NCBI GenBank assembly: GCA_964016885.1
Contig: OZ024742.1
Coordinates: 164,796,001 to 164,860,000 of the forward strand
Source of the DNA: Eledone cirrhosa
Taxonomy: Eukaryota
Length of the DNA stretch: 64,000 nucleotides
Reading direction: 5' to 3'
The notes beneath the pieces were generated by a model, which worked only from the letters and a program-made list of their open reading frames with translations, did no database searches and was not told the origin of the DNA. Positions 1 to 64,000 of the stretch are shown in pieces. Made by a program: the position numbers and the translations under genes. How positions within the stretch are numbered: position 1 is the stretch's first letter; each line of letters begins with the position of its first letter.

Positions 1-127
1 GCTGGAAATTATCTCCCCTTGGAGGCTGGAATTTATCTCCCCTTGGACGGCTAGAAATTACCTCTCCTTGGACGGCTGGAAAATATGTCTCCTTGGACGG
101 CTGGATATTATCTACCCTTGGACGGCT

Positions 128-152
128 GGAAATTATCTCCCCTTGGACGGCT
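128..152 (+). repeat. Representative type A monomer, 25 bp: GGAAATTATCTCCCCTTGGACGGCT
   Basis: Read directly; it is followed immediately by another copy starting at 153. 13/25 GC with one CpG and no stop codon in any + frame. Confidence 0.97.
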
Positions 153-314
153 GGAAATTATCTCCCCTTGGACGGCTAGATATTACCTCCCCTTGGACGG
201 CTGGAAATTATCTCCCCTTGATTTTTTTTACAAATTATCTCCCCCTGATTTTTTTTTACGAATTATCTCCCCCTGATTTTTTTTTACAAATTATCTCCGC
301 CTGATTTTTTTTTA

Positions 315-455
315 AAATTATCTCCCCTTGAACGGCTGGAAATTATCTCCCCTTGGACGGCTGGAAATTATCTCCCCTTGGACGGCTAGAAATTACCTCT
401 CCTTGGACGGCTGAAAATTATCTCCCCTTGGACGGCTGCAAATTATCTCCCCTTG
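315..455 (+). repeat. A-cassette class III (5 monomers)
   Basis: TTGAACGGCTGG > canonical > GGCTAGAAATTACCTCTCC > GGCTGAAAATT > GGCTGCAAATT > TTGATTTTTTAACAAA; also at about 5500, 6540, 12050, 14395, 16805, 17845, 20795 and later. Confidence 0.88.
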
Positions 456-949
456 ATTTTTTTAACAAATTATCTCCCCCTGATTTTTTTTTACAAATTA
501 TCTCCCCCTGATTTTTTTTTACAAATTATCTACGCCTAATTTTTTTTACAAATTATCTCCCCCTGATTTTTTTTACAAATTATCTCCCCCTGATTTTTTT
601 TACAAATTATCTCCCCCTGATTTTTTTTTACAAATTATCTCCCCCTGATTTTTTTACAAATTATCTCCCCCCTGATTTTTTTTACAATCTCCGCCTGATT
701 TTTTTAAAAATTATCTTCCCTTGGCTGGCAGGAAATTATCTCCCCTTGGACGGCTGAAAATTATCTCCCCTTGGACGGCTGGAAATTATCTCCCCTTGAT
801 TTTTTTTACAAATTATCTCCCCCTGATTTTTTTTTACAAATTATCTCCCCCTGATTTTTTTTACAAATTATCTCCCCCTGATTTTTTTTTACAAATTATC
901 TGCCCCTGATTTTTTTTACAAATTATCTCCCCCTGATTTTTTTACAAAT

Positions 950-1185
950 TATCTCCCCTTGGCTGGCTGGAAATTATCTCCCCTTGGAGGCTGGAATTTA
1001 TCTCCCCTTGGACGGCTAGAAATTACCTCTCCTTGGACGGCTGGAAAATATTTCTCCTTGGACGGCTGGATATTATCTACCCTTGGACGGGTGGAAATTA
1101 TCTCCCCTTGGACGGCTGGAAATTATCTCCCCTTGGACGGCTAGATATTACCTCCCCTTGGACGGCTGGAAATTATCTACCCTTG
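950..1185 (+). repeat. A-cassette class I (about 9 monomers, about 225-250 bp) with a fixed order of variants
   Basis: Order is TTGGCTGGCTGG > TTGGAGGCTGGAATTT > GGCTAGAAATTACCTCTCC > GGAAAATAT(G/T)TCTCC > GGATATTATCTACCC > 1-2 canonical > GGCTAGATATTACCTCCCC > canonical > B run. It recurs dozens of times (the 'MAGWKLSPLGGWNL' pseudo-ORFs). Confidence 0.92.
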
Positions 1186-1384
1186 ATTTTTTTTACAAAT
1201 TATCTCCCCCTGATTTTTTTTACAAATTATCTCCACCTGATTTTTTTACAAATTATCTCCCCCTGATTTTTTTTACAAATTATCTCCCCCTGATTTTTTT
1301 TTTACAAATTATCTCCCCCTGATTTTTTTACAAATTATCTCCCCCTGATTTTTTTTACAAATTATCTCCGCCTGATTTTTTTAA

Positions 1385-1475
1385 ATATTATCTTCCCTTG
1401 GCTGGCGGGAAATTATCTCCCCTTGGACGGCTGAAAATTATCTCCCCTTGGACGGCTGGAAATTATCTCCCCTTG
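1385..1475 (+). repeat. A-cassette class II (2-3 monomers)
   Basis: AAATATTATCTTCCCTTGGCTGGCGGG > GGCTGAAAATT > canonical > B run, typically preceded by a CTCCGCCT B variant; also at about 2030, 3725, 4540, 7610, 15535, 19455. Confidence 0.88.
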
Positions 1476-2589
1476 ATTTTTTTTACAAATTATCTCCCCC
1501 TGATTATTTTTTACAAATTATCTTTCCCTGATTTTTTTTTACAAATTATCTCCCCCTGATTTTTTATACAAATTATCTCCCCCTGATTTTTTTACAAATT
1601 ATCTCCCCTTGGCTGGCTGGAAATTATCTCCCCTTGGAGGCTGGAATTTATCTCCCCTTGGACGGCTGGAAATTATCTCTCCTTGGACGGCTAGTAATTA
1701 CCTCTCCTTGGACGGCTGGAAAATATGTCTCGTTGGAGGGCTGGAAATTATCTCCCCTTGGACGGCTGGAAATTATCTCCCCTTGGACGGCTGGAAATTA
1801 TCTCTCCTTGGACGGCTAGAAATTACCTCTCCTTGGACGGCTGAAAATTATCTCCCCTTGGACGGCTAGATATTACCTCCCCTTGGACGGCTGGAAATTA
1901 TCTCCCCTTGATTTTTTTTACAAATTATCTCCCCCTGATTTTTTTTACAAATTATCTCCACCTGATTTTTTTACAAATTATCTCCCCCTGATTTTTTTTA
2001 CAAATTATCTCCGCCTAATTTTTTTAAATATTATCTTCCCTTGGCTGGCGGGAAATTATCTCCCCTTGGACGGCTGAAAATTATCTCCCCTTGGACGGCT
2101 GGAAATTATCTCCCCTTGATTTTTTTTACAAATTATCTCCCCCTGATTTTTTTTTACAAATTATCTCCCCCTGATTTTTTTTTACAAATTATCTCCCCCT
2201 GATTTTTTTTTACAAATTATCTCCCCCTGATTTTTTTTACAAATTATCTCCCCTTGGCTGGCTGGAAATTATCTCCCCTTGGAGGCTGGAATTTATCTCC
2301 CCTTGGACGGCTAGAAATTACCTCTCCTTGGACGGCTGGAAAATATGTCCTTGGACGGCTGGATATTATCTACCCTTGGACGGCTGGAAATTATCTCCCC
2401 TTGGACGGCTGGAAATTATCTCCCCTTGGAGGCTGGAATTTATCTCCCCTTGGACGGCTAGAAATTACCTCTCCTTGGACGGCTGGAAAATATGTCCTTG
2501 GACGGCTGGATATTACCTCCCCTTGGACGGCTGGAAATTATCTCCCCTTGATTTTTTTTACAAATAATCTCCCCCTGATTTTTTTTACA

Positions 2590-3000
2590 AATCTAATGAT
2601 TTTTTAAAAAAAATTATCTCCCCTTCGCTGGCTGGAAATTATCTCCCCTTCGCTGGCTGGAAATTATCTCCCCTTGGACGCTGGAAATTATAGCCCCTTG
2701 GAGGGCTGGAAATTATCTTCCCTTGGACGGCTGGAAATTATCTCCCCTTGGCTCGAAATTATCTCCCCTTGGACGGCTAGAAATTATCTCTCTTTGGACG
2801 GCTGGAAATTATCTCCCTTTGATTTTTTTTACAAATTATCTCCCCCTGATTTTTTTTACAAATCTCCCCCTGATTTTTTAAAAAAAATTATCTCCCCTTC
2901 GCTGTCTGGAAATTATCTCCCCTTGGACACTGGAAATTATAGCCCCTTGGAGGGCTGGAAATTATCTTCCCTTGGACGGCTGGAAATTATCTCTGCTTGA
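2590..3000 (+). repeat. Divergent landmark block (about 410 bp) of atypical monomers
   Basis: Contains AATCTAATGAT, TTCGCTGGCTGG, GGACGCTGG, TTATAGCCCC, GGCTCGAAATT, GGACACTGG and CTCTGCTTGA. Full copies at about 8812-9222, 45741-46150 and 55234-55643; partial copy at about 59488-59562. Confidence 0.9.
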
Positions 3001-4197
3001 TTTTTTTTACAAATTATCTCCCCCTGATTTTTTTTTACAAATTATCCCCCCCGATTTTTTTTACAAATTATCTCCCCCTGATTTTTTTTACAAATTATCT
3101 CCCCTTGGACGGCTGGAAATTATCTCCCCTTGGACGGCTGGAAATTATCTCCCCTTGGACGGCTAGAAATTACCTCTCCTTGGACGACTGAAAATTATCT
3201 CCCCTTGGACGGCTGCAAATTATCTCCCCTTGATTTTTTTTACAAATTATCTCCGCCTGATTTTTTTTTTAAAATTATCTCCCCTTGGACGGCTGGAAAT
3301 TACCTCCCCTTGGACGGCTGGAAATTATCTCCCCTTGGACGGCTAGAAATTACCTCTCATTGGACGGCTGAAAATTATCTCCCCTTGGACGGCTGGAAAT
3401 TATCTCCCCTTGATTTTTTTTTACAAATTATCTCCCCCTGATTTTTTTTTACAAATTATCTCCCCCTGATTTTTTTTTTACAAATTATCTCCGCCTGATT
3501 TTTTTTTAAAATTATCTCTCCTTGGACGGCTGGATATTATCTCCCCTTTCATTTTTTTTACAAATTATCTCCCCCTGATTTTTTTTTACAAATTATCTCC
3601 CCCTGATTTTTTTTTACAAATTATCTACCCCTAATTTTTTTTTACAAATTATCTCCCCCTGATTTTTTTACAAATTATCTCCCCCTGATTTTTTTTACAA
3701 ATTATCTCCGCCTGATTTTTTTAAATATTATCTTCTCTTGGCTGGCGGGAAATTATCTCCCCTTGGACGGCTGAAAATTATCTCCCCTTGGACGGCTGGA
3801 AATTATCTCCCCTTGATTTTTTTTACAAATTATCTCCCCCTGATTTTTTTTTACAAATTATCTCCCCCTGATTTTTTTTACAAATTATCTCCCCCTGATT
3901 TTTTTTTACAAATTATCTCCCCCTGATTTTTTTTACAAATTATCTCCCCCTGATTTTTTTACAAATTATCTCCCCTTGGCTGGCTGGAAATTATCTCCCC
4001 TTGGAGGCTGGAATTTATCTCCCCTTGGACGGCTAGAAATTACCTCTCCTTGGACGGCTGGAAAATATGTCCTTGGACGGCTGGATATTATCTACCCTTG
4101 GACGGCTGGAAATTATCTCCCCTTGGACGGCTGGAAATTATCTCCCCTTGGACGGCTAGATATTACCTCCCCTTGGACGGCTGGAAATTATCTCCCC

Positions 4198-4545
4198 TTG
4201 ATTTTTTTTACAAATTATCCCCCCCTGATTTTTTTTTACAAATTATCTCCCCCTGATTTTTTTTTACAAATTATCTACCCCTGATTTTTTTTTACAAATT
4301 ATCTCCCCCTGATTTTTTTTACAAATTATCTCTCCCTGATTTTTTTTTACAAATTATCTCCCCCTGATTTTTTTTTACAAATTATCTACCCCTGATTTTT
4401 TTTTACAAATTATCTCCCCCTGATTTTTTTTACAAATTATCTCCCCCTGATTTTTTTTACAAATTATCTCCCCCTGATTTTTTTACAAATTATCTCCCCC
4501 CGATTTTTTTTACAAATTATCTCCGCCTAATTTTTTTAAATATTT
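4198..4545 (+). repeat. Long run of type B monomers (ACAAATTATCTCCCCCTGA + T7-T9), about 13 copies; representative of type B blocks
   Basis: Read directly. Equivalent long B runs are at about 10746-11095, 42030-42380, 47402-47755, 51525-51875, 56690-57040 and 60790-61140. Confidence 0.93.
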
Positions 4546-7500
4546 TCTTCCCTTGGCTGGCGGGAAATTATCTCCCCTTGGACGGCTGAAAATTATCTCC
4601 CCTTGGACGGCTGGAAATTATCTCCCCTTGATTTTTTTACAAATTATCTCCCCCTGATTATTTTTTACAAATTATCTCCCCCTGATTTTTTTTTACAAAT
4701 TATCTCCCTCTGATTTTTTTTACAAATTATCTCCCCTTGGCTGGCTGGAAATTATCTCCCCTTGGAGGCTGGAATTTATCTCCACTTGGACGGTTAGAAA
4801 TTACCTCTCCTTGGACTGCTGGAAAATATGTCTCCTTGGACGGCTGGAAATTATCTCCCCTTGGACGGCTGGAAATTATCTCCCCTTGGACGGCTGGAAA
4901 TTATCTCTCCTCGGACGACTAGAAATTACCTCTCCTTGGACAGCTGAAAATTATCTCCCCTTGGACGGCTGGAAATTATCTCCCCTTGATTTTTTTTACA
5001 AATTATCTCCCCGATTTTTTTTTACAAATTATCTCCCCCTGATTTTTTTTTACAAATTATCTCCCCCTGATTTTTTTTACAAATTATCTCCCCCTGATAT
5101 TTTTTACAAATTATCTCCCCCTGATTTTTTAACAAATTATCTCCCCTTGGCTGGCTGGAAATTATCTCCCCTTGGAGGCTGGAATTTATCTCCCCTTGGA
5201 CGGCTAGAAATTACCTCGCCTTGGACGGCTGGAAAATATGTCTCCTTGGACGGCTGGAAATTATCTCCCCTTGGACGGCTGGAAATTATCTCCCCTTGGA
5301 CGGCTGGAAATTATCTCCCTTTGGACGGCTAGATATTACCTCCCCTTGGACGGCTGGAAATTATCTCCCCTTGATTTTTTTTACAAATTATCTCCCCCTG
5401 ATTTTTTTTTACAAATTATCTCCCCCTGATTTTTTTTTACGAATTATCTCCCCCTGATTTTTTTTTACAAATTATCTCCGCCTGATTTTTTTTTTAAAAT
5501 TATCTCCCCTTGAACGGCTGGAAATTATCTCCCCTTGGACGGCTGGAAATTATCTCCCCTTGGACGGCTAGAAATTACCTCTCCTTGGACGGCTGAAAAT
5601 TATCTCCCCTTGGACGGCTGCAAATTATCTCCCCTTGATTTTTTAACAAATTATCTCCCCCTGATTTTTTTTTACAAATTATCTCCCCCTGATTTTTTTT
5701 TACAAATTATCTCCCCCTGATTTTTTTTTACAAATTATCTCCCCCTGATTTTTTTTACAATCTCCGCCTGATTTTTTAAAAAATTATCTTCCCTTGGCTG
5801 GCGGGAAATTATCTCCCCTTGGACGGCTGGAAATTATCTCCCCTTGATTTTTTTACAAATTATCTCCCCCTGATTTTTTTTACAAATTATCTCCCCCTGA
5901 TTTTATGTTACAAATTATCTCCCCCTGATTTTTTTACAAATTATCTCCCCCTGATTTTTTTTACAAATTATCTCCGCCTGATTTTTTTAAATATTATCTT
6001 CCCTTGGCTGGCGGGAAATTATCTCCCCTTGGACGGCTGGAAATTATCTCCCCTTGATTTTTTTTACAAATTATCTCCCCCTGATTTTTTTTTACAAATT
6101 ATCTCCCCCTGATTTTTTTTTACAAATTATCTCCCCCTGATTTTTTTTTACAAATTATCTCCCCCTGATTTTTTTTTACAAATCTCCCCCTGATTTTTTT
6201 ATAAATTATCTCCCCTTGGCTGGCTGGAAATTATCTCCCCTTGGAGGCTGGAATTTATCTCCCCTTGGACGGCTAGAAATTACCTCTCCTTGGATGGCTG
6301 GAAAATATGTCTCCTTGGACGGCTGGATATTATCTACCCTTGGACGGCTGGAAATTATCTCCCCTTGGACGGCTGGAAATTATCTCCCCTTGGACGGCTA
6401 GATATTACCTCCCCTTGGACGGCTGGAAATTATCTCCCCTTGATTTTTTTTACAAATTATCTCCCCCTGATTTTTTTTTACGAATTATCTCCCCCTGATT
6501 TTTTTTTACAAATTATCTCCGCCTGATTTTTTTTTAAAATTATCTCCCCTTGAACGGCTGGAAATTATCTCCCCTTGGACGGCTGGAAATTATCTCCCCA
6601 TGGACGGCTAGAAATTACCTCTCCTTGGACGGCTGAAAATTATCTCCCCTTGGACGGCTGCAAATTATCTCCCCTTGATTTTTTTAACAAATTATCTCCC
6701 CCTGATTTTTTTTTACAAATTATCTCCCCCTGATTTTTTTTTACAAATTATCTACGCCTAATTTTTTTTACAAATTATCTCCCCCTGATTTTTTTTACAA
6801 ATTATCTCCCCCTGATTTTTTTTACAAATTATCTCCCCCTGATTTTTTTTTACAAATTATCTCCCCCTGATTTTTTTACAAATTATCTCCCCCCTGATTT
6901 TTTTTACAATCTCCGCCTGATTTTTTTAAAAATTATCTTCCCTTGGCTGGCAGGAAATTATCTCCCCTTGGACGGCTGAAAATTATCTCCCCTTGGACGG
7001 CTGGAAATTATCTCCCCTTGATTTTTTTTACAAATTATCTCCCCCTGATTTTTTTTTACAAATTATCTCCCCCTGATTTTTTTTACAAATTATCTCCCCC
7101 TGATTTTTTTTTACAAATTATCTGCCCCTGATTTTTTTTACAAATTATCTCCCCCTGATTTTTTTACAAATTATCTCCCCTTGGCTGGCTGGAAATTATC
7201 TCCCCTTGGAGGCTGGAATTTATCTCCCCTTGGACGGCTAGAAATTACCTCTCCTTGGACGGCTGGAAAATATTTCTCCTTGGACGGCTGGATATTATCT
7301 ACCCTTGGACGGGTGGAAATTATCTCCCCTTGGACGGCTGGAAATTATCTCCCCTTGGACGGCTAGATATTACCTCCCCTTGGACGGCTGGAAATTATCT
7401 ACCCTTGATTTTTTTTACAAATTATCTCCCCCTGATTTTTTTTACAAATTATCTCCACCTGATTTTTTTACAAATTATCTCCCCCTGATTTTTTTTACAA

Positions 7501-9807
7501 ATTATCTCCCCCTGATTTTTTTTTTACAAATTATCTCCCCCTGATTTTTTTACAAATTATCTCCCCCTGATTTTTTTTACAAATTATCTCCGCCTGATTT
7601 TTTTAAATATTATCTTCCCTTGGCTGGCGGGAAATTATCTCCCCTTGGACGGCTGAAAATTATCTCCCCTTGGACGGCTGGAAATTATCTCCCCTTGATT
7701 TTTTTTACAAATTATCTCCCCCTGATTATTTTTTACAAATTATCTTTCCCTGATTTTTTTTTACAAATTATCTCCCCCTGATTTTTTATACAAATTATCT
7801 CCCCCTGATTTTTTTACAAATTATCTCCCCTTGGCTGGCTGGAAATTATCTCCCCTTGGAGGCTGGAATTTATCTCCCCTTGGACGGCTGGAAATTATCT
7901 CTCCTTGGACGGCTAGTAATTACCTCTCCTTGGACGGCTGGAAAATATGTCTCGTTGGAGGGCTGGAAATTATCTCCCCTTGGACGGCTGGAAATTATCT
8001 CCCCTTGGACGGCTGGAAATTATCTCTCCTTGGACGGCTAGAAATTACCTCTCCTTGGACGGCTGAAAATTATCTCCCCTTGGACGGCTAGATATTACCT
8101 CCCCTTGGACGGCTGGAAATTATCTCCCCTTGATTTTTTTTACAAATTATCTCCCCCTGATTTTTTTTACAAATTATCTCCACCTGATTTTTTTACAAAT
8201 TATCTCCCCCTGATTTTTTTTACAAATTATCTCCGCCTAATTTTTTTAAATATTATCTTCCCTTGGCTGGCGGGAAATTATCTCCCCTTGGACGGCTGAA
8301 AATTATCTCCCCTTGGACGGCTGGAAATTATCTCCCCTTGATTTTTTTTACAAATTATCTCCCCCTGATTTTTTTTTACAAATTATCTCCCCCTGATTTT
8401 TTTTTACAAATTATCTCCCCCTGATTTTTTTTTACAAATTATCTCCCCCTGATTTTTTTTACAAATTATCTCCCCTTGGCTGGCTGGAAATTATCTCCCC
8501 TTGGAGGCTGGAATTTATCTCCCCTTGGACGGCTAGAAATTACCTCTCCTTGGACGGCTGGAAAATATGTCCTTGGACGGCTGGATATTATCTACCCTTG
8601 GACGGCTGGAAATTATCTCCCCTTGGACGGCTGGAAATTATCTCCCCTTGGAGGCTGGAATTTATCTCCCCTTGGACGGCTAGAAATTACCTCTCCTTGG
8701 ACGGCTGGAAAATATGTCCTTGGACGGCTGGATATTACCTCCCCTTGGACGGCTGGAAATTATCTCCCCTTGATTTTTTTTACAAATAATCTCCCCCTGA
8801 TTTTTTTTACAAATCTAATGATTTTTTAAAAAAAATTATCTCCCCTTCGCTGGCTGGAAATTATCTCCCCTTCGCTGGCTGGAAATTATCTCCCCTTGGA
8901 CGCTGGAAATTATAGCCCCTTGGAGGGCTGGAAATTATCTTCCCTTGGACGGCTGGAAATTATCTCCCCTTGGCTCGAAATTATCTCCCCTTGGACGGCT
9001 AGAAATTATCTCTCTTTGGACGGCTGGAAATTATCTCCCTTTGATTTTTTTTACAAATTATCTCCCCCTGATTTTTTTTACAAATCTCCCCCTGATTTTT
9101 TAAAAAAAATTATCTCCCCTTCGCTGTCTGGAAATTATCTCCCCTTGGACACTGGAAATTATAGCCCCTTGGAGGGCTGGAAATTATCTTCCCTTGGACG
9201 GCTGGAAATTATCTCTGCTTGATTTTTTTTACAAATTATCTCCCCCTGATTTTTTTTTACAAATTATCCCCCCCGATTTTTTTTACAAATTATCTCCCCC
9301 TGATTTTTTTTACAAATTATCTCCCCTTGGACGGCTGGAAATTATCTCCCCTTGGACGGCTGGAAATTATCTCCCCTTGGACGGCTAGAAATTACCTCTC
9401 CTTGGACGACTGAAAATTATCTCCCCTTGGACGGCTGCAAATTATCTCCCCTTGATTTTTTTTACAAATTATCTCCGCCTGATTTTTTTTTTAAAATTAT
9501 CTCCCCTTGGACGGCTGGAAATTACCTCCCCTTGGACGGCTGGAAATTATCTCCCCTTGGACGGCTAGAAATTACCTCTCATTGGACGGCTGAAAATTAT
9601 CTCCCCTTGGACGGCTGGAAATTATCTCCACTTGATTTTTTTTTACAAATTATCTCCCCCTGATTTTTTTTTACAAATTATCTCCCCCTGATTTTTTTTA
9701 CAAATTATCTCCCCCTGATTTTTTTTACAAATTATCTCCCCCTGATTTTTTTACAAATTATCTCCCCCCTGATTTTTTTTACAATCTCCGCCTGATTTTT
9801 TTAAAAA

Positions 9808-9980
9808 TTATCTTCCCTTGGCTGGCGGGAAATTATCTCCCCTTGGACGGCTGGAAATTATATCCCCTTGGAAGGATGGAAATTATCTCCCCTTGGACGG
9901 CTGGAAATTATCTCCCCTTGGACGGCTGGAAATTACCTCCCCTTGGACAGCTGGAAATTATCTGCCCTTGATTTTGTTTT
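9808..9980 (+). repeat. A-cassette class IV (about 6 monomers)
   Basis: CTTCCCTTGGCTGGCGGG > ATTATATCCCC > TTGGAAGGATGG > canonical x2 > GGACAGCTGG > ATCTGCCCTTGATTTTGTTTTT; matches the 'WKDG' pseudo-ORFs at 9818, 14800, 18250, 18718, 23429, 27038, 32199, 35805, 36273, 39427, 40862, 43655, 45010, 50355, 53148, 54503, 62495. Confidence 0.88.
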
Positions 9981-12900: not shown

Positions 12901-13789
12901 CGGCTGGAAAATATTTCTCCTTGGACGGCTGGATATTATCTACCCTTGGACGGGTGGAAATTATCTCCCCTTGGACGGCTGGAAATTATCTCCCCTTGGA
13001 CGGCTAGATATTACCTCCCCTTGGACGACTGGAAATTATCTCCCCTTGATTTTTTTTACAAATTATCTCCCCCTGATTTTTTTTTTACAAATTATCTCCC
13101 CCTGATTTTTTTTACAAATTATCTCCGCCTGATTTTTTTAAATATTATCTTCTCTTGGCTGGCGGGAAATTATCTCCCCTTGGACGGCTGAAAATTATCT
13201 CCCCTTGGACGGCTGGAAATTATCTCCCCTTGATTTTTTTTACAAATTATCTCCCCCTGATTTTTTTTTACAAATTATCTCCCCCTGATTTTTTTTTACA
13301 AATTATCTCCCCCTGATTTTTTTTTTACAAATTATCTCCCCCTGATTTATTTACAAATTATCTCCCCCTGATTTTTTTTACAAATTATCTCCGACTGATT
13401 TTTTTAAATATTATCTTCTCTTGGCTGGCGGGAAATTATCTCCCCTTGGACGGCTGAAAATTATCTCCCCTTGGACGGCTGGAAATTATCTCCCCTTGAT
13501 TTTTTTTACAAATTATCTCCCCCTGATTTTTTTTTACAAATTATCTCCCCCTGATTTTTTTTTACAAATTATCTCCCCCTGATTTTTTTTTACAAATTAT
13601 CTCCCCCTGATTTTTTTTACAAATTATCTCCCCCTGATTTTTTTACAAATTATCTCCCCTTGGCTGGCTGGAAATTATCTCCCCTTGGAGGCTGGAATTT
13701 ATCTCCCCTTGGACGGCTAGAAATTACCTCTCCTTGGACGGCTGGAAAATATGTCCTTGGACGGCTGGATATTATCTACCCTTGGACGT

Positions 13790-52000: not shown

Positions 52001-55000
52001 ATCTCCCCCTGATTTTTTTTTACAAATTATCTCCCCCTGATTTTTTTTACAAATTATCTCCCCCTGATTTTTTTACAAATTATCTCCCCTTGGCTGGCTG
52101 GAAATTATCTCCCCTTGGAGGCTGGAATTTATCTCCCCTTGGACGGTTAGAAATTACCTCTCCTTGGACGGCTGGAAAATATGTCTCCTTGGACGGCTGG
52201 AAATTATCGCCCCTTGGACGGCTGGAAATTATCTCCCCTTGGACGGCTGGAAATTATCTCTCCTCGGACGGCTAGAAATTACCTCTCCTTGGACAGCTGA
52301 AAATTATCTCCCCTTGGACGGCTGGAAATTATCTCCCCTTGATTTTTTTTACAAATTATCTCCCCCTGATTTTTTTTTACAAATTATCTCCCCCTGATTT
52401 TTTTTTACAAATTATCTCCCCCTGATTTTTTTTTACAAATTATCTCCCCCTGATATTTTTTACAAACTATCTCCCCCTGATTTTTTTACAAATTATCTCC
52501 CCTTGGCTGGCTGGAAATTATCTCCCCTTGGAGGCTGGAATTTATCTCCCCTTAGACGGCTAGAAATTACCTCGCCTTGGACGGCTGGAAAATATGTCTC
52601 CTTGGACGGCTGGAAATTATCTCCCCTTGGACGGCTGGAAATTATCTCCCCTTGGACGGCTGGAAATTATCTCCCCTTGGACGGCTAGATATTACCTCCC
52701 CTTGGACGGCTGGAAATTATCTCCCCTTGATTTTTTTTACAAATTATCTCCCCCTGATTTTTTTTTACAAATTATCTCCCCCTGATTTTTTTTTACGAAT
52801 TATCTCCCCCCGATTTTTTTTTACAAATTATCTCCGCCTGATTTTTTTAAAAAAATTATCTCCCCTTGAACGGCTGGAAATTATCTCCCCTTGGACGGCT
52901 GGAAATTATCTCCCCTTGGACGGCTAGAAATTACCTCTCCTTGGACGGCTGAAAATTATCTCCCCTTGGACGGCTGCAAATTATCTCCCCTTGATTTTTT
53001 AACAAATTATCTCCCCCTGATTTTTTTTTACAAATTATCTCCCCCTGATTTTTTTTTACAAATTATCTCCCCCTGATTTTTTTACAAATTATCTCCCCCT
53101 GATTTTTTTTACAATCTCCGCCTGATTTTTTTAAAAATTATCTTCCCTTGGCTGGCGGGAAATTATCTCCCCTTGGACGGCTGGAAATTATATCCCCTTG
53201 GAAGGATGGAAATTATCTCCCCTTGGACGGCTGGAAATTATCTCCCCTTGGACGGCTGGAAATTATCTCCCCTTGGACAGCTGGAAATTATCTGCCCTTG
53301 ATTTTGTTTTTACAAATTATCTCCCCCTGATTTTTTTTACAAATTATCTCCACCTGATTTTTTAAAAAATTATCTCCCCTTGGACGGCTGGAAATTATCT
53401 CCCCTTGATTTTTTTACAAATTATCTCCCCCTGATTTTTTTTACAAATTATCTCCCCCTGATTTTTTGTTACAAATTATCTCCCCCTGATTTTTTTAAAA
53501 ATTATCTCCCCCTGATTTTTTTTACAAATTATCTCCGCCTGATTTTTTTAAATATTATCTTCCCTTGGCTGGCGGGAAATTATCTCCCCTTGGACGGCTG
53601 AAAATTATCTCCCCTTGGACGGCTGGAAATTATCTCCCCTTGATTTTTTTACAAATTATCTCCCCCTGATTTTTTTTTACAAATTATCTCCCCCTGATTT
53701 TTTTTACAAATTATCTCCCCCTGATTTTTTTTTACAAATTATCTCCCCCTGATTTTTTTACAAATTATCTCCCCTTGGCTAGCTGGAAATTATCTCCCCT
53801 TGGAGGCTGGAATTTATCTCCCCTTGGACGGCTAGAAATTACCTCTCCTTGGACGGCTGGAAAATATGTCTCCTTGGACGGCTGGATATTATCTACCCTT
53901 GGACGGCTGGAAATTATCTCCCCTTGGACGGCTGGAAATTATCTCCCCTTGGACGGCTAGATATTACCTCCCCTTGGACGGCTGGAAATTATCTCCCCTT
54001 GATTTTTTTTACAAATTATCTCCCCCTGATTTTTTTTTACGAATTATCTCCCCCTGATTTTTTTTTACAAATTATCTCCGCCTGATTTTTTTTTTAAATT
54101 ATCTCCCCTTGAACGGCTGGAAATTATCTCCCCTTGGACGGCTGGAAATTATCTCCCCTTGGACGGCTAGAAATTACCTCTCCTTGGACGGCTGAAAATT
54201 ATCTCCCCTTGGACGGCTGCAAATTATCTCCCCTTGATTTTTTTAACAAATTATCTCCCCCTGATTTTTTTTTACAAATTATCTCCCCCTGATTTTTTTT
54301 TACAAATTATCTACGCCTAATTTTTTTTACAAATTATCTCCCCCTGATTTTTTTTTACAAATTATCTCCCCCTGATTTTTTTTACAAATTATCTCCCCCT
54401 GATTTTTTTTTACAAATTATCTCCCCCTGATTTTTTTACAAATTATCTCCCCCCTGAATTTTTTTACAATCTCCGCCTGATTTTTTAAAAAATTATCTTC
54501 CCTTGGCTGGCAGGAAATTATCTCCCCTTGGTCGGCTGGAAATTATATCCCCTTGGAAGGATGGAAATTATCTCCCCTTGGACGGCTGGAAATTATCTCC
54601 CCTTGGACGGCTGGAAATTACCTCCCCTTGGACAGCTGGAAATTATCTGCCCTTGATTTTGTTTTTACAAATTATCTCCCCCTGATTTTTTTTACAAATT
54701 ATCTCCACCTGATTTTTTAAAAAATTATCTCCCCTTGATTTTTTTACAAATTATCTCCCCCTGATTTTTTTTACAAATTATCTCCCCCTGATTTTTTTTT
54801 TACAAATTATCTCCCCCTGATTTTTTTACAAATTATCTCCCCCTGATTTTTTTTACAAATTATCTCCGCCTGATTTTTTTTACAAATTATCTCCCCTTGG
54901 CTGGCTGGAAATTATCTCCCCTTGGAGGCTGGAATTTATCTCCCCTTGGACGGCTAGAAATTACCTCTCCTTGGACGGCTGGAAAATATGTCCTTGGACG

Positions 55001-58000
55001 GCTGGATATTATCTACCCTTGGACGGCTGGAAATTATCTCCCCTTGGACGGCTGGAAATTATCTCCCCTTGGAGGCTGGAATTTATCTCCCCTTGGACGG
55101 CTAGAAATTACCTCTCCTTGGACGGCTGGAAAATATGTCCTTGGACGGCTGGATATTACCTCCCCTTGGACGGCTGGAAATTATCTCCCCTTGATTTTTT
55201 TTACAAATTATCTCCCCCTGATTTTTTTTACAAATCTAATGATTTTAAAAAAAAAATTATCTCCCCTTCGCTGGCTGGAAATTATCTCCCCTTCGCTGGC
55301 TGGAAATTATCTCCCCTTGGACGCTGGAAATTATAGCCCCTTGGAGGGTTGGAAATTATCTTCCCTTGGACGGCTGGAAATTATCTCCCCTTGGCTCGAA
55401 ATTATCTCCCCTTGGACGGCTAGAAATTATCTCTCTTTGGACGGCTGGAAATTATCTCCCTTTGATTTTTTTTACAAATTATCTCCCCCTGATTTTTTTT
55501 ACAAATCTCCCCCTGATTTTTTAAAAAAAATTATCTCCCCTTCGCTGGCTGGAAATTATCTCCCCTTGGACACTGGAAATTATAGCCCCTTGGAGGGCTG
55601 GAAATTATCTTCCCTTGGACGGCTGGAAATTATCTCTGCTTGATTTTTTTTACAAATTATCTCCCCCTGATTTTTTTTTACAAATTATCCCCCCCGATTT
55701 TTTTTACAAATTATCTCCCCCTGATTTTTTTTACAAATTATCTCCCCTTGGACGGCTGGAAATTATCTCCCCTTGGACGGCTGGAAATTATCTCCCCTTG
55801 GACGGCTAGAAATTACCTCTCCTTGGACGACTGAAAATTATCTCCCCTTGGACGGCTGCAAATTATCTCCCCTTGATTTTTTTTACAAATTATCTCCCCC
55901 TGATTTTTTTTTACAAATTATCTCCCCCTGATTTTTTTTTTACAAATTATCTCCGCCTGATTTTTTTTTAAAATTATCTCTCCTTGGACGGCTGGATATT
56001 ATCTCCCCTTTCATTTTTTTTACAAATTATCTCCCCCTGATTTTTTTTTACAAATTATCTCCCCCTGATTTTTTTTTTACAAATTATCTACCCCTAATTT
56101 TTTTTTACAAATTATCTCCCCCTGATTTTTTTTACAAATTATCTCCCCCTGATTTTTTTTTTACAAATTATCTCCCCCTGATTTTTTTTACAAATTATCT
56201 CCGCCTGATTTTTTTAAATATTATCTTCTCTTGGCTGGCGGGAAATTATCTCCCCTTGGACGGCTGAAAATTATCTCCCCTTGGACGGCTGGAAATTATC
56301 TCCCCTTGATTTTTTTTACAAATTATCTCCCCCTGATTTTTTTTTACAAATTATCTGCCCCTGATTTTTTTTACAAATTATCTCCCCCTGATTTTTTTTT
56401 ACAAATTATCTCCCCCTGATTTTTTTTACAAATTATCTCCCCCTGATTTTTTTACAAATTATCTCCCCTTGGCTGGCTGGAAATTATCTCCCCTTGGAGG
56501 CTGGAATTTATCTCCCCTTGGACGGCTAGAAATTACCTCTCCTTGGACGGCTGGAAAATATGTCCTTGGACGGCTGGATATTATCTACCCTTGGACGGCT
56601 GGAAATTATCTCCCCTTGGACGGCTGGAAATTATCTCCCCTTGGACGGCTAGATATTACCTCCCCTTGGACGGCTGGAAATTATCTCCCCTTGATTTTTT
56701 TTACAAATTATCCCCCCCTGATTTTTTTTTACAAATTATCTCCCCCTGATTTTTTTTTACAAATTATCTATCCCTGATTTTTTTTTACAAATTATCTCCC
56801 CCTAATTTTTTTTACAAATTATCTCTCCCTGATTTTTTTTTACAAATTATCTCCCCCTGATTTTTTTTTACAAATTATCTACCCCTGATTTTTTTTTACA
56901 AATTATCTCCCCCTGATTTTTTTTACAAATTATCTCCCCCTGATTTTTTTTACAAATTATCTCCCCCTGATTTTTTTACAAATTATCTCCCCCCGATTTT
57001 TTTTACAAATTATCTCCGCCTAATTTTTTTAAATATTATCTTCCCTTGGCTGGCGGGAAATTATCTCCCCTTGGACGGCTGAAAATTATCTCCCCTTGGA
57101 CGGCTGGAAATTATCTCCCCTTGATTTTTTTACAAATTATCTCCCCCTGATTATTTTTTACAAATTATCTCCCCCTGATTTTTTTTTACAAATTATCTCC
57201 CTCTGATTTTTTTTACAAATTATCTCCCCTTGGCTGGCTGGAAATTATCTCCCCTTGGAGGCTGGAATTTATCTCCACTTGGACGGTTAGAAATTACCTC
57301 TCCTTGGACTGCTGGAAAATATGTCTCCTTGGACGGCTGGAAATTATCTCCCCTTGGACGGCTGGAAATTATCTCCCCTTGGACGGCTGGAAATTATCTC
57401 TCCTCGGACGACTAGAAATTACCTCTCCTTGGACAGCTGAAAATTATCTCCCCTTGGACGGCTGGAAATTATCTCCCCTTGATTTTTTTTACAAATTATC
57501 TCCCCCCGATTTTTTTTTACAAATTATCTCCCCCTGATTTTTTTTTACAAATTATCTCCCCCTGATTTTTTTTACAAATTATCTCCCCCTGATATTTTTT
57601 ACAAATTATCTCCCCCTGATTTTTTTACAAATTATCTCCCCTTGGCTGGCTGGAAATTATCTCCCCTTGGAGGCTGGAATTTATCTCCCCTTGGACGGCT
57701 AGAAATTACCTCGCCTTGGACGGCTGGAAAATATGTCTCCTTGGACGACTGGAAATTATCTCCCCTTGGACGGCTGGAAATTATCTCCCCTTGGACGGCT
57801 GGAAATTATCTCCCCTTGGACGGCTAGATATTACCTCCCCTTGGACGGCTGGAAATTATCTCCCCTTGATTTTTTTTACAAATTATCTCCCCCTGATTTT
57901 TTTTTTAAATTATCTCCCCTTGAACGGCTGGAAATTATCTCCCCTTGGACGGCTGGAAATTATCTCCCCTTGGACGGCTAGAAATTACCTCTCCTTGGAC

Positions 58001-59040
58001 GGCTGAAAATTATCTCCCCTTGGACGGCTGCAAATTATCTCCCCTTGATTTTTTAACAAATTATCTCCCCCTGATTTTTTTTTACAAATTATCTCCCCCT
58101 GATTTTTTTTTACAAATTATCTACGCCTAATTTTTTTTACAAATTATCTCCCCCTGATTTTTTTTTACAAATTATCTCCCCCTGATTTTTTTTACAAATT
58201 ATCTCCCCCTGATTTTTTTTTACAAATTATTTCCCCCTGATTTTTTTACAAATTATCTCCCCCCTGATTTTTTTTACAATCTCCGCCTGATTTTTGTAAA
58301 AATTATCTTGCCTTGGCTGGCGGGAAATTATCTCCCCTTGGACGGCTGGAAATTATATCCCCTTGGACGGCTGGAAATTACCTCCCCTTGGACAGCTGGA
58401 AATTATCTGCCCTTGATTTTGTTTTTACAAATTATCTCCCCCTGATTTTTTTTACAAATTATCTCCACCTGATTTTTTAAAAAATTATCTCCCCTTGGAC
58501 GGCTGGAAATTATCTCCCCTTGATTTTTTTACAAATTATCTCCCCCTGATTTTTTTTACAAATTATCTCCCCCTGATTTTTTTTTACAAATTATCTCCCC
58601 CTGATTTTTTTACAAATTATCTCCCCCTGATTTTTTTTACAAATTATCTCCGCCTGATTTTTTTAAATATTATCTTCCCTTGGCTGGCGGGAAATTATCT
58701 CCCCTTGGACGGCTGATAATTATCTCCCCTTGGACGGCTGGAAATTATCTCCCCTTGATTTTTTTTACAAATTATCTCCCCCTGATTTTTTTTTACAAAT
58801 TATCTCCCCCTGATTTTTTTTACAAATTATCTCCGCCTGATTTTTTTAAATATTATCTTCCCTTGGCTGGCTGGAAATTATCTCCCCTTGGAGGCTGGAA
58901 TTTATCTCCCCTTGGACGGCTAGAAATTACCTCTCCTTGGACGGCTGGAAAATATTTCTCCTTGGACGGCTGGATATTATCTACCCTTGGACGGGTGGAA
59001 ATTATCTCCCCTTGGACGGCTGGAAATTATCTCCCCTTGG
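40083..59040. repeat. HOR domain 3: two copies at offset 9493 bp, changing to 9287 bp after a net 206-bp loss in copy 2
   Basis: ORF pairs 40207/49700, 40862/50355, 41627/51120, 42597/52090, 45404/54897, 46122/55615 (offset 9493) and 46944/56231, 47943/57230, 49208/58495, 49650/58937 (offset 9287). Confidence 0.93.
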
Positions 59041-62000
59041 ACGGCTAGATATTACCTCCCCTTGGACGACTGGAAATTATCTCCCCTTGATTTTTTTTAC
59101 AAATTATCTCCCCCTGATTTTTTTTTTACAAATTATCTCCCCCTGATTTTTTTACAAATTATCTCCCCCTGATTTTTTTTACAAATTATCTCCGCCTGAT
59201 TTTTTTAAATATTATCTTCTCTTGGCTGGCGCGAAATTATCTCCCCTTGGACGGCTGAAAATTATCTCCCCTTGGACGGCTGGAAATTATCTCCCCTTGA
59301 TTTTTTTTACAAATTATCTCCCCCTGATTTTTTTTAAAAAATTATCTCCCCCTGATTTTTTTTTACAAATTATCTCCCCCTGATTTTTTTTTACAAATTA
59401 TCTCCCCCTGATTTTTTTTACAAATTATCTCCCCCTGATTTTTTTACAAATTATCTCCCCTTGGCTGGCTGGAAATTATCTCCCCTTGGACACTGTAAAT
59501 TATAGCCCCTTGGAGGGCTGGAAATTATCTTACCTTGGACGGCTGGAAATTATCTCTGCTTGATTTTTTTTACAAATTATCTCCCCCTGATTTTTTTTTA
59601 CAAATTATCCCCCCCGATTTTTTTTACAAATTATCTCCCCCTGATTTTTTTTACAAATTATCTCCCCTTGGACGGCTGGAAATTATCTCCCCTTGGACGG
59701 CTGGAAATTATCTCTCCTTGGACGGCTAGAAATTACCTCTCCTTGGACGACTGAAAATTATCTCCCCTTGGACGGCTGCAAATTATCTCCCCTTGATTTC
59801 TTTTACAAATTATCTCCGCCTGATTTTTTTTTTAAAATTATCTCCCCTTGGACGGCTGGAAATTACCTCCCCTTGGACGGCTGGAAATTATCTCCCCTTG
59901 GACGGCTAGAAATTACCTCTCATTGGACGGCTGAAAATTATCTCCCCTTGGACGGCTGGAAATTATCTCCCCTTGATTTTTTTTACAAATTATCTCCCCC
60001 TGATTTTTTTTTTACAAATTATCTCCGCCTGATTTTTTTTTAAAATTATCTCTCCTTGGACGGCTGGATATTATCTCCCCTTTCATTTTTTTTACAAATT
60101 ATCTCCCCCTGATTTTTTTTTACAAATTATCTCCCCCTGATTTTTTTTTACAAATTATCTACCCCTAATTTTTTTTTACAAATTATCTCCCCCTGATTTT
60201 TTTTACAAATTATCTCCCCCTGATTTTTTTTTTACAAATTATCTCCCCCTGATTTTTTTACAAATTATCTCCCCCTGATTTTTTTTACAAATTATCTCCG
60301 CCTGATTTTTTTAAATATTATCTTCTCTTGGCTGGCGGGAAATTATCTCCCCTTGGACGGCTGAAAATTATCTCCCCTTGGACGGCTGGAAATTATCTCC
60401 CCTTGATTTTTTTTACAAATTATCTCCCCCTGATTTTTTTTTACAAATTATCTCCCCCTGATTTTTTTTTACAAATTATCTCCCCCTGATTTTTTTTTAC
60501 AAATTATCTCCCCCTGATTTTTTTTACAAATTATCTCCCCCTGATTTTTTTACAAATTATCTCCCCTTGGCTGGCTGGAAATTATCTCCCCTTGGAGGCT
60601 GGAATTTATCTCCCCTTGGACGGCTAGAAATTACCTCTCCTTGGACGGCTGGAAAATATGTCCTTGGACGGCTGGATATTATCTACCCTTGGACGGCTGG
60701 AAATTATCTCCCCTTGGACGGCTGGAAATTATCTCCCCTTGGACGGCTAGATATTACCTCCCCTTGGACGGCTGGAAATTATCTCCCCTTGATTTTTTTT
60801 ACAAATTATCTCCCCCTGATTTTTTTTTACAAATTATCTCCCCCTGATTTTTTTTTACAAATTATCTCCGCCTGATTTTTTTTTACAAATTATCTCCCCC
60901 TAATTTTTTTTACAAATTATCTCTCCCTGATCTTTTTTTACAAATTATCTCCCCCTGATTTTTTTTTACCAATTATCTACCCCTGATTTTTTTTTACAAA
61001 TTATCTCCCCCTTATTTTTTTTACAAATTATCTCCCCCTGATTTTTTTTACAAATTATCTCCCCCTGATTTTTTTACAAATTATCTCCCCCCGATTTTTT
61101 TTACAAATTATATCCGCCTAATTTTTTAAATATTATCTATCCTTGGCTGGCGGGAAATTATCTCCCCTTGGACGGCTGAAAATTTTCTCCCCTTGGACGG
61201 CTGGAAATTATCTCCCCTTGATTTTTTTACAAATTATCTCCCCCTGATTATTTTTTACAAATTATCTCCCCCTGATTTTTTTTTACAAATTATCTCCCTC
61301 TGATTTTTTTTACAAATTATCTCCCCTTGGCTGGCTGGAAATTATCTCCCCTTGGAGGCTGGAATTTATCTCCCCTTGGACGGTTAGAAATTACCTCTCC
61401 TTGGACTGCTGGAAAATATGTCTCCTTGGACGGCTGGAAATTATCTCCCCTTGGACGGCTGGAAATTATCTCCCCTTGGACGGCTGGAAATTATCTCTCC
61501 TCGGACGACTAGAAATTACCTCTCCTTGGACAGCTGAAAATTATCTCCCCTTGGACGGCTGGAAATTATCTCCCCTTGATTTTTTTTACAAATTATCTCC
61601 CCCTGATTTATTTTACAAATTATCTCCCCCTGATTTTTTTTTACAAATTATCTCCCCCTGATTTTTTTTACAAATTATCTCCCCCTGATATTTTTTACAA
61701 ATTATCTCCCCCTGATTTTTTTACAAATTATCTCCCCTTGGCTGGCTGGAAATTATCTACCCTTGGAGGCTGGAATTTATCTCCCCTTGGACGGCTAGAA
61801 ATTACCTCGCCTTGGACGGCTGGAAAATATGTCTCCTTGGACGGCTGGAAATTATCTCCCCTTGGACGGCTGGAAATTATCTCCCCTTGGACGGCTGGAA
61901 ATTATCTCCCCTTGGACGGCTAGATATTACCTCCCCTTGGACGGCTGGAAATTATCTCCCCTTGATTTTTTTTACAAATTATCTCCCCCTGATTTTTTTT

Positions 62001-64000
62001 TACAAATTATCTCCCCCTGATTTTTTTTTACGAAGTATCTCCCCCTGATTTTTTTTTACAAATTATCTCCGCCTGATTTTTTTTAAAAAATTATCTCCCC
62101 TTGAACGGCTGGAAATTATCTCCCCTTGGACGGCTGGAAATTATCTCCCCTTGGACGGCTAGAAATTACCTCTCCTTGGACGGCTGAAAATTATCTCCCA
62201 TTGGACGGCTGCAAATTATCTCCCCTTGATTTTTTAACAAATTATCTCCCCCTGATTTTTTTTTACAAATTATCTCCCCCTGATTTTTTTTTACAAATTA
62301 TCTACGCCTAATTTTTTTTACAAATTATCTCCCCCTGATTTTTTTTATACAAATTATCTCCCCCTGATTTTTTTTACAAATTATCTCCCCCTGATTTTTT
62401 TTTACAAATTATTTCCCCCTGATTTTTTTACAAATTATCTCCCCCCTGATTTTTTTTACAATCTCCGCCTGATTTTTTTAAAAATTATCTTCCCTTGGCT
62501 GGCGGGAAATTATCTCCCCTTGGACGGCTGGAAATTATATCCCCTTGGAAGGATGGAAATTATCTCCCCTTGGACGGCTGGAAATTATCTCCCCTTGGAC
62601 GGCTGGAAATTATCTCCCCTTGGACAGCTGGAAATTATCTGTCCTTGATTTTGTTTTTACAAATTATCTCCCCCTGATTTTTTTTACAAATTATCTCCAC
62701 CTGATTTTTTAAAAAATTATCTCCCCTTGGACGGCTGGAAATTATCTCCCCTTGATTTTTTTTACAAATTATCTCCCCCTGATTTTTTTTTACAAATTAT
62801 CTCCCCCTGATTTTTTTTTACAAATTATCTCCCCCTGATATTTTTTACAAATTATCTCCCCCTGATTTTTTTACAAATTATCTCCCCTTGGCTGGCTGGA
62901 AATTATCTCCCCTTGGAGGCTGGAATTTATCTCCCCTTGGACGGCTAGAAATTACCTCGCCTTGGACGGCTGGAAAATATGTCTCCTTGGACGGCTGGAA
63001 ATTATCTCCCCTTGGACGGCTGGAAATTATCTCCCCTTGGACAGCTGGAAATTATCTCCCCTTGGACGGCTAGATATTACCTCCCCTTGGACGGCTGGAA
63101 ATTATCTCCCCTTGATTTTTTTTACAAATTATCTCCCCCTGATTTTTTTTTACAAATTATCTCCCCCGGATTTTTTTTACGAATTATCTCCCCCCGATTT
63201 TTTTTACAAATTATCTCCGGCTGATTTTTTTTTAAAAATTATCTCCCCTTGAACGGCTGGAAATTATCTCCCCTTGGACGGCTGGAAATTATCTCCCCTT
63301 GGACGGCTAGAAATTACCTCTCCTTGGACGGCTGAAAATTATCTCCCCTTGGACGGCTGCAAATTATCTCCCCTTGATTTTTTAACAAATTATCTCCCCC
63401 TGATTTTTTTTTACAAATTATCTCCCCCTGATTTTTTTTTACAAATTATCTCCCCCTGATTTTTTTTTACAAATTATCTCCCCCTGATTTTTTTACAAAT
63501 TATCTCCCCCTGATTTTTTTTACAATCTCCGCCTGATTTTTTAAAAAATTATCTTCCCTTGGCTGGCGGGAAATTATCTCCCCTTGGACGGCTGGAAATT
63601 ATCTCCCCTTGGACGGCTGGAAATTATCTCCCCTTGGACAGCTGGAAATTATCTGCCCTTGATTTTGTTTTTACAAATTATCTCCCCCTGATTTTTTTTA
63701 CAAATTATCTCCACCTGATTTTTTAAAAAATTATCTCCCCTTGGACGGCTGGAAATTATCTCCCCTTGATTTTTTTACAAATTATCTCCCCCTGATTTTT
63801 TTTACAAATTATCTCCCCCTGATTTTATGTTACAAATTATCTCCCCCTGATTTTTTTACAAATTATCTCCCCCTGATTTTTTTTACAAATTATCTCCGCC
63901 TGATTTTTTTAAATATTATCTTCCCTTGGCTGGCGGGAAATTATCTCCCCTTGGACGGCTGGAAATTATCTCCCCTTGATTTTTTTTACAAATTATCTCC
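59040..64000. repeat. Mosaic segment assembled from pieces matching domains 1 and 2
   Basis: 58937 matches 12896; 59535 and 59693 match 2972 and 3130; 60567 matches 3976; 61327-62311 matches 22317-23301; 62495 matches 14800; 62888 and 63274 match 20441 and 20829. Confidence 0.8.

What the first reader, a model, noticed from the sequence alone, without database searches (positions are those of the whole stretch)
1..64000. Four-level hierarchy with HOR period switching (6.2-6.5, 8.7 and 9.3-9.5 kb) inside one array
Seen: 25-29 bp monomers build 75-350 bp cassettes, which build ~4 kb subunits and 6-9.5 kb HORs of roughly 230-360 monomers each. Three adjacent domains use the same cassettes in different orders, and each is repeated only 2-3 times. 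Inference: the array grows by local multi-kb tandem duplication (unequal exchange or break-induced replication) rather than by homogenising one fixed HOR. Such layered expansion is known in centromeric and pericentromeric arrays, making this a candidate centromeric satellite, but the window cannot show that.
Basis: partly seen in the sequence, partly recalled or inferred. Interest (0 to 1): 0.7.

Follow-up and report, generated by a model that had tools for sequence, protein, structure and literature searches.

The report
Octopod two-monomer satellite, serially duplicated
This window is a small piece of a 3-million-base block of two alternating short repeats in a likely octopus genome; its shifting 6-9.5 kb spacings are real but likely record one-off copying of pieces of every size rather than a fixed higher-order unit, a known kind of satellite turnover, and a centromere role is untested.

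Summary
Two monomers (25 and 26-28 bp) alternate in runs, and the offsets 6,222/6,548, 8,716-8,788 and 9,493/9,287 are the strongest in the window, each with 2-3 copies. The hierarchy is not four fixed levels, however. In 724 kb of contiguous array, no offset covers more than 3% of positions. Tandem duplications run from 0.8 to 8.8 kb, nested inside ones of about 33 kb and 100-180 kb. The window's three domains are consecutive parts of a longer cycle whose order recurs at 98-180 kb spacing. A letter-perfect 179,692-bp duplicate has its junction inside the window. A sister array has a near-perfect 232,283-bp one. Both may be assembler loops (about 60%). The family covers about 12.8 Mb, in interior blocks on 5 chromosome-scale contigs plus unplaced ones. 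The window's block lies between two scaffold gaps, so a centromere role is about 30%. The mechanism, in-register homology-directed duplication, is described for Arabidopsis, maize and human satellites. The scan noted the same pattern in other satellites of this genome. The family was not found in print.

The parts
1..64000 (+). Pure two-monomer satellite (A 25 bp, 50% GC, CpG-bearing; B 26-28 bp, 28% GC, poly-T) in alternating runs; part of a block of about 2.95 Mb between two scaffold gaps (G000:C3:162,699,882-165,654,111)
1..12303 (+). Domain 1: units of 6,452 (begins upstream, at window -7,407), 6,222 and 6,548 bp; 249/240/253 monomers
12304..17111 (+). Linker between domains 1 and 2, made of the same cassettes, without a local tandem partner
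17112..37971 (+). Domain 2: alternating 4.0-4.8 kb halves giving 8,716-8,843 bp offsets; about 2.3 copies; 8 substitutions between first and second unit
37959..39960 (+). Start of the marker subunit that opens each long cycle (recurs at window -292,938, -240,072, -141,680, 217,651, 371,587)
39961..59456 (+). Domain 3: units of 9,493 and 9,287 bp (366/358 monomers; 9 substitutions, indels of 180 and 26 bp)
42988..51753 (+). 8,766-bp stretch present three times at 179,692-bp spacing: junction of the letter-perfect mega-duplication (real recent exchange or assembler loop)
1..42987 (+). End of the first copy of the 179,692-bp unit (begins at window -136,704)
42988..64000 (+). Start of the second, identical copy of the 179,692-bp unit (ends at window 222,679)

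Best explanation
This is a non-coding satellite array of two related 25-28 bp monomers whose changing multi-kb spacings likely record one-off tandem duplications and deletions of every size, likely made when broken or stalled DNA is repaired out of register against a matching monomer nearby. Shown: the monomers, runs, periods, copy numbers, nesting, the preserved monomer register and the lack of a dominant period. Inferred: that the events are homology-directed (break-induced replication, strand slippage during repair, or unequal sister exchange; sequence cannot separate these); that the array is young; and that it is heterochromatin. Each duplication makes a local two-copy 'HOR' that is then broken by the next event, so no period spreads. 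Larger events (about 33 kb, 100-180 kb) copy several such domains together, which is why the order domain 1-2-3 recurs. The letter-perfect 179,692-bp copy is more likely an assembler loop printed twice (about 0.6) than two independently read copies. Centromere function is possible (about 0.3) but the structure does not require it.
For: No fixed HOR: with the exact duplicate removed (544 kb, 20,963 monomers) the best offset covers 3.0% of positions; 21 tandem duplications of 0.8-8.8 kb have 1.9-3.0 copies. A toy model of random in-register duplication/deletion up to 400 monomers gives 1.3-2.2% and median 2.03-2.04 copies (observed 3.0%, 2.04); a fixed HOR gives 51-54%. Register: 27,882 of 27,884 parsed pieces in 724 kb are 21-29 bp, and no 1-kb bin falls below 0.9 shared 12-mers; larger indels between domain 2 and 3 copies are whole monomers. 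Nesting: offsets 32,142, 40,311 and 44,855 differ by exactly the two inner duplications of 8,169 and 4,544 bp, and the older upstream cycle has those pieces once. Conserved long order: collinear 20-monomer words 2,679 (98-kb vs 180-kb cycle) and 1,751 (154-kb vs 180-kb) against 1,266+/-169 and 851+/-111 in 30 subunit shuffles; all 5 of 5 cycle pairs exceed their shuffle maximum. Junction homology of 40 bp or more in 6 of 8 clean events against 12% of 3,000 random in-register points. A 150-kb block on C2 behaves alike: top offset 6.9%, tandem units 10,410, 9,021, 2,660 and 2,208 bp. 301-mers are shared within the window's array (0.02-0.74) and hardly with other arrays (0.00-0.02). Published: Arabidopsis indels add or remove whole units as tandem duplications (10.1101/2025.06.02.657473).
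Against: No reads were examined, so every duplication rests on the assembly. The toy model was not fitted: with events up to 7,000 monomers it overshoots (top offset 15-31%), and it gave 41-52 tandem arrays against 22 observed in the closer setting. The junction test used 12 of 21 duplications; 3 of the 12 fell short of a full period by 111-252 bp and were left out, two rows were one event, and the null is not matched for cassette context. The measured Arabidopsis insertions average 1.9 kb (1-31 units), smaller than many here. One stretch has 2.8 copies of about 7.4 kb and the same unit recurs nearby, which is incipient HOR-like spreading.
Confidence: 0.8

Rival explanations
1. The 179,692-bp duplicate (junction at window 42,988-51,753) is an assembler loop: one read path printed twice, either from a false join at an 8.8-kb exact repeat or from two real, nearly identical copies merged into one consensus.
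For: 188,458 bp match with 0 differences, though each unit holds 3,032 poly-T tracts; the next longest exact match in the array is 13,061 bp. The older 100-180 kb copies carry about 0.3-0.4 breaks per kb. A second case in unplaced C123: offset 232,283, run 645,859-883,109, 1 mismatch in 64,968 sampled bases, overlap 4,968 bp.
Against: Unequal exchange between two exact repeats gives the same layout. Longer exact repeats in the same array (13,061 and 11,863 bp) were not doubled this way. The one C123 mismatch lies 43 bp past the overlap, so that junction has its own sequence. Older duplications of the same size class are clearly real.
Confidence: 0.6
2. The array is the functional centromere of this giant chromosome, and kinetochore-linked breakage or selection drives its recent expansion.
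For: Interior positions at 37-63% of contig length on C1-C4 and at 50% on C21; about 3+2 Mb on C3 and about 5 Mb on C2; no foreign insertion in 724 kb; diverged monomers at one array edge. Octopod C-bands are mostly centromeric (PMC6160780, passages). Human CENP-A tends to sit on recently duplicated zones (10.1101/2021.07.12.452052, passages).
Against: The 130 fully listed rare-variant hits fall on C2, C3, C4, C21, C123 and C1058 only; C1 shows. C1 and C4 have two loci 28 and 65 Mb apart. The window's block is joined to its neighbours by 200-N gaps on both sides. Many other satellites crowd the same region. Non-centromeric maize knobs show the same kind of structure (PMC13011684).
Confidence: 0.3
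3. A classical fixed HOR was homogenised across the array, and the window shows only its structural variants.
For: A small cassette alphabet (68 A-run types, 374 monomer variants in 724 kb) and strongly preferred successions; a conserved long order of subunits.
Against: No offset above 3% of positions; the longest tandem run is 3.0 copies; cycle lengths are 53, 98, 180 and 154 kb.
Confidence: 0.04
4. Rolling-circle amplification and reinsertion of excised circles built the multi-kb units.
For: Blocks recur at long distance with 0.01-0.1% divergence.
Against: Circles would be expected to give many exact head-to-tail copies (inference); 19 of 21 tandem events have 1.9-2.4 copies. Distant copies are collinear parts of larger duplications.
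Confidence: 0.06

Closest known systems
Arabidopsis CEN178 kilobase indels and homogenised blocks (10.1101/2025.06.02.657473; abstract and sections 5, 7, 11 read)
   Same: Tandem duplications and deletions of whole units keep the register; accumulated events give local HORs and long-range similarity.
   Different: There the monomer is 178 bp, events were measured in mutation-accumulation lines (insertions 1-31 units, mean 1,870 bp) and CENH3 is known. Here monomers are 25-28 bp of two types, and events reach hundreds to thousands of monomers.
Maize CentC and knob HORs (PMC13011684; abstract and Discussion read)
   Same: HORs are local and low-copy (about 3 occurrences), none dominates; large knobs have repeated long-range blocks ascribed to unequal crossover, with break-induced replication for the small scale.
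   Different: Maize patterns average about 4 monomers; here local units hold 240-366 short monomers, and a long subunit order is kept.
Human HSat2/3 nested tandem repeats and alpha-satellite macro-repeats (10.1101/2021.07.12.452052; passages read)
   Same: Multi-kb units built on a short repeat, periodicity varying across an array, zones of recent duplication inside large macro-repeats.
   Different: HSat2/3 derive from a pentamer that has decayed; here discrete monomers parse cleanly. Alpha-satellite has a canonical HOR, which this array lacks.
Tribolium madens intermingled satellites with macro-dyad symmetry (PMC13081366; abstract read)
   Same: Megabase regions of two related repeats, arrays in both orientations, putatively (peri)centromeric.
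   Different: Here the two types alternate every 1-15 monomers and no inversion lies within the 724 kb read; the opposite-strand array on C3 lies beyond a gap and may be a scaffolding effect.

Membership tests
Tandem satellite DNA | Long head-to-tail array of short monomers without coding content | tested here: met
   27,884 parsed pieces over 724 kb with no N and no foreign bin; 2 chance-like ORFs of 134 aa in the window; no Rfam hit in 1-12,000
Canonical HOR array (alpha-satellite type) | One multi-monomer unit repeated many times in tandem across the array | tested here: not met
   best offset covers 3.0% of positions; maximum 3.0 tandem copies
Canonical HOR array (alpha-satellite type) | Copies of the unit far more alike than monomers within it | tested here: met
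   about 0.1% between units against 1.2-1.7 edits per monomer from consensus
Local, low-copy HORs / nested tandem repeats | Period varies along the array, with few copies per pattern | tested here: met
Local, low-copy HORs / nested tandem repeats | Indels add or remove whole monomers | tested here: met
   (apart from 1-4 bp changes, mostly in poly-T tracts)
Centromeric satellite | CENP-A occupancy or location at the primary constriction | not testable with these tools
   no ChIP, methylation or FISH data
Centromeric satellite | One large array per chromosome | tested here: not met
   detected on 5 of 16 chromosome-scale contigs seen, two loci each on C1 and C4; small or unassembled arrays could be missed, as C1 was missed by 3 of the 3 fully listed searches; chromosome-specific centromere repeats would also fail this test
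Centromeric satellite | Layered symmetry with older, diverged flanks | tested here: inconclusive
   long-word sharing falls towards 162.7-163.0 Mb, but both ends of the block are cut by gaps
Telomeric or subtelomeric repeat | Located at chromosome ends | tested here: not met
   none of 15 chromosome-scale contig starts or the end of C3 holds it; 4 of those starts are TTAGGG arrays

The most novel reading that the evidence does not exclude
This is the centromeric satellite of an octopod's giant chromosomes, organised as an elastic 50-180 kb macro-cycle with conserved subunit order but no fixed length, and the two near-perfect 180-230 kb duplicates are real, which would mean 0.2-Mb unequal exchanges occur within a few generations.
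Probability: 0.1. Interest if true: 0.65.

Novelty: new member of a known kind. Interest (0 to 1): 0.33.

Why it matters
Short, cleanly parseable monomers in two classes act as a barcode, so the order of duplication events can be read over hundreds of kilobases. This makes the array a good test case for models of satellite turnover. The searches I ran found no described octopod centromeric repeat, so it gives FISH and CENP-A targets. It also warns that letter-perfect 0.2-Mb repeats in such assemblies may inflate array size. The mechanism itself is not new.

Tried and rejected
A DNA search of the own genome with window 1-300 found nothing because common words are skipped. A long idealised A-run pattern had 0 matches. 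One rare-variant pattern proved common on C2 (2,749 hits, first 100 all on C2) and did not map loci. Read depth and junction-spanning reads were not examined, so the status of the mega-duplicates stays open. A nucleosome-length rule for cassettes: A+B lengths spread over 170-450 bp with two broad humps; not supported. C123 as the other haplotype of the window's array: 0.00 shared 301-mers in one 2-kb sample; not supported. Coding or structured-RNA role: negative. No date is given because no mutation rate is available. Literature: (listings) showed no paper on an octopod satellite of this kind; one search found neither strand of the core motif in any text; PMC13282606 has no occurrence of 'satellite' or 'centromer'; one search gave no direct description of loop-doubling in its listing, so that mechanism is recalled. 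No supplements were read; consensus sequences in supplements or in unsearched journals could include this family. Look-ups of earlier findings by sequence and nearby place returned nothing relevant.
Full report
What is there. The window is pure satellite on one strand. It parses into two monomers that share a core: A (mostly 25 bp, 50% GC) and B (26-28 bp, poly-T, 28% GC), in alternating runs. Pairwise alignment gives units of 6,222/6,548 bp (240/253 monomers), 8,788/8,770 bp (339/338) and 9,493/9,287 bp (366/358). Domains 2 and 3 show 8-9 substitutions per unit plus indels of whole monomers. Shuffled monomers repeat words of at most 5 monomers, against at least 80 in the real sequence.

Context. 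The window lies at G000:C3:164,796,001-164,860,000 in a 3.0-Gb assembly. Four contigs are 379-443 Mb and the rest seen are 135 Mb or less; 4 of 15 chromosome-scale starts sampled are TTAGGG arrays. An exon of a WASHC5 gene on C3 has Octopus vulgaris as best hit (94%; other listed animals up to 91%), so the organism is likely an octopod. The protein is conserved and this is a group-level inference only. A 33-bp pattern has 36,576 matches, about 12.8 Mb at the window's density. Loci: C1 251.2 and 279.2 Mb, C2 245.6-251.1 Mb (plus then minus strand), C3 162.7-165.65 (+), 165.86-167.8 (-) and 169.1 (+), C4 140.1 and 205.5-205.8, C21 17.6, and unplaced C123 and C1058. The window's block is cut by 200-N gaps at both ends, 2,954,230 bp apart. 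I read 724 kb of it contiguously plus samples.

No fixed HOR. In 724 kb there are 27,884 parsed pieces, 374 variants and no foreign insertion. After removing the one exact duplicate, the best offset covers 3.0% of positions, and 21 tandem duplications of 0.8-8.8 kb have 1.9-3.0 copies. A fixed 366-monomer HOR with 0.1% noise scores 51-54%. A toy model of random in-register duplication and deletion up to 400 monomers scores 1.3-2.2% with about 2 copies per event; allowing 7,000 monomers overshoots to 15-31%. The model was not fitted. A 150-kb block on C2 shows the same behaviour with its own periods. Long words are array-specific.

More levels, interleaved in time. A duplication of about 33 kb upstream shows offsets 32,142, 40,311 and 44,855. 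These differ by exactly two inner duplications of 8,169 and 4,544 bp, and the older upstream cycle holds those pieces once. So small events followed a large one. A marker subunit recurs at spacings of 53, 98, 180 and 154 kb. Subunit order is conserved between these cycles beyond all 30 shuffles in 5 of 5 pairs, strongly for the 98/180 and 154/180 pairs and weakly for the 53-kb cycle. The window's three domains are therefore consecutive, locally amplified parts of one elastic long cycle, not free re-orderings.

The exact duplicate. Window -136,704..51,753 equals 42,988..231,445 with no difference in 188,458 bp, although each unit holds 3,032 poly-T tracts. The next longest exact match is 13,061 bp. 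The junction, an 8,766-bp stretch present three times, lies in domain 3. Domain 3's 9.5-kb period also exists at the third site (offset 9,466), so it is not created by the junction. Marker spacings in C123 revealed a second case: offset 232,283 bp, 1 mismatch in 64,968 sampled bases, overlap 4,968 bp. Two near-zero-age events of this size, beside older ones with about 0.3-0.4 breaks per kb, fit an assembler loop somewhat better than a steady biological rate (inference; about 0.6). Recent unequal exchange gives the same layout, and only reads can decide.

Mechanism. Register is kept, events are mostly two-copy, and junction homology is longer than at random in-register points: 6 of 8 clean events have 40 bp or more, against 12% (binomial 7e-5). 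That count uses 12 of 21 duplications; 3 eroded cases were left out and one event appeared twice. This points to homology-directed, out-of-register repair. It matches what was measured in Arabidopsis mutation-accumulation lines (10.1101/2025.06.02.657473, sections read) and the two-scale reading for maize (PMC13011684, Discussion). RAD52/PIF1-dependent change of human arrays supports break-induced replication as one route (PMC11034957, abstract). Sequence cannot separate that route from unequal sister exchange.

Centromere. For: interior, multi-megabase, pure and young blocks; octopod C-bands are mostly centromeric (PMC6160780, passages); molluscs including an octopod express CENP-A (PMC12210499, passages). 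Against: most chromosomes lack a detected array, two chromosomes have two loci, the block's position rests on scaffolding, and non-centromeric knobs show similar structure. The inverted pair on C3 is doubtful: a second WASHC5 copy is split between 165.70 Mb (+) and 186.2 Mb (-) at an intronic 55-bp array that starts at the gap, which suggests a mis-oriented or truly inverted 20-Mb block. Estimate 0.3.

Novelty and verdict. Variable local periodicity and macro-repeats are described in human satellites (10.1101/2021.07.12.452052, passages), maize and Arabidopsis. Unreviewed notes of this scan report the same serial duplication in 7-, 16- and 23-bp satellites of this genome; I did not test those. 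The family itself was not found in the searches made. Verdict: a real feature, a new member of a known kind, interest 0.33.

Noticed in passing
G000:C3:165.695-165.814 Mb (+), 186.158-186.248 Mb (-), 221.349-221.487 Mb (-); loci L110, L121-L123, L164-L171: WASHC5 (strumpellin) is present twice: one full copy and one split into halves 20 Mb apart on opposite strands, 96-97.5% identical in sampled stretches. The break falls in an intron where a 55-bp satellite is 1.7 kb in the full copy and at least 40 kb plus 19 kb in the split copy. A retained haplotype or segmental duplication with a mis-oriented or inverted block.
   Followed up: partly
G000:C123:645,859-1,115,392 (L184-L198): Second near-perfect tandem mega-duplication of this satellite (232,283 bp; 1 mismatch in 64,968 sampled bases) in an unplaced 2.9-Mb contig.
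   Followed up: partly
G000:C3:162.5-162.70 Mb (L105, L172-L174, L200-L203): Left neighbours are a 23-bp satellite and at least 50 kb of a 9-bp telomere-like repeat, ending at the gap before the array.
   Followed up: no
G000:C3:165.85-165.87 Mb (L162, L183): The minus-strand array begins without a gap after an 88-bp satellite, with short diverged monomers, a GC-rich palindromic patch and AT-rich pentamer runs: a natural, older edge that may show the family's origin.
   Followed up: no
G000:C1:251.8 Mb (L127): A variant block that seems to hold only A-type monomers with a different variable part, next to the A/B array.
   Followed up: no
G000:C2:248.25-248.5 Mb (L178-L180, L135): The plus and minus arrays on C2 are separated by non-satellite DNA sampled at 248.35 and 248.43 Mb; whether a gap lies there was not checked.
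   Followed up: no
G000:C1:251,191,971-251,192,170 (L038, L039): The C1 array also starts right after a 200-N gap, next to a 91-bp AT-rich satellite.
   Followed up: no
G000:C3:168.2-168.66 Mb (L116, L020): A 13-bp A-rich satellite separates the minus array from the small plus array at 169.1 Mb, which is more diverged (176 variants in 390 monomers).
   Followed up: no
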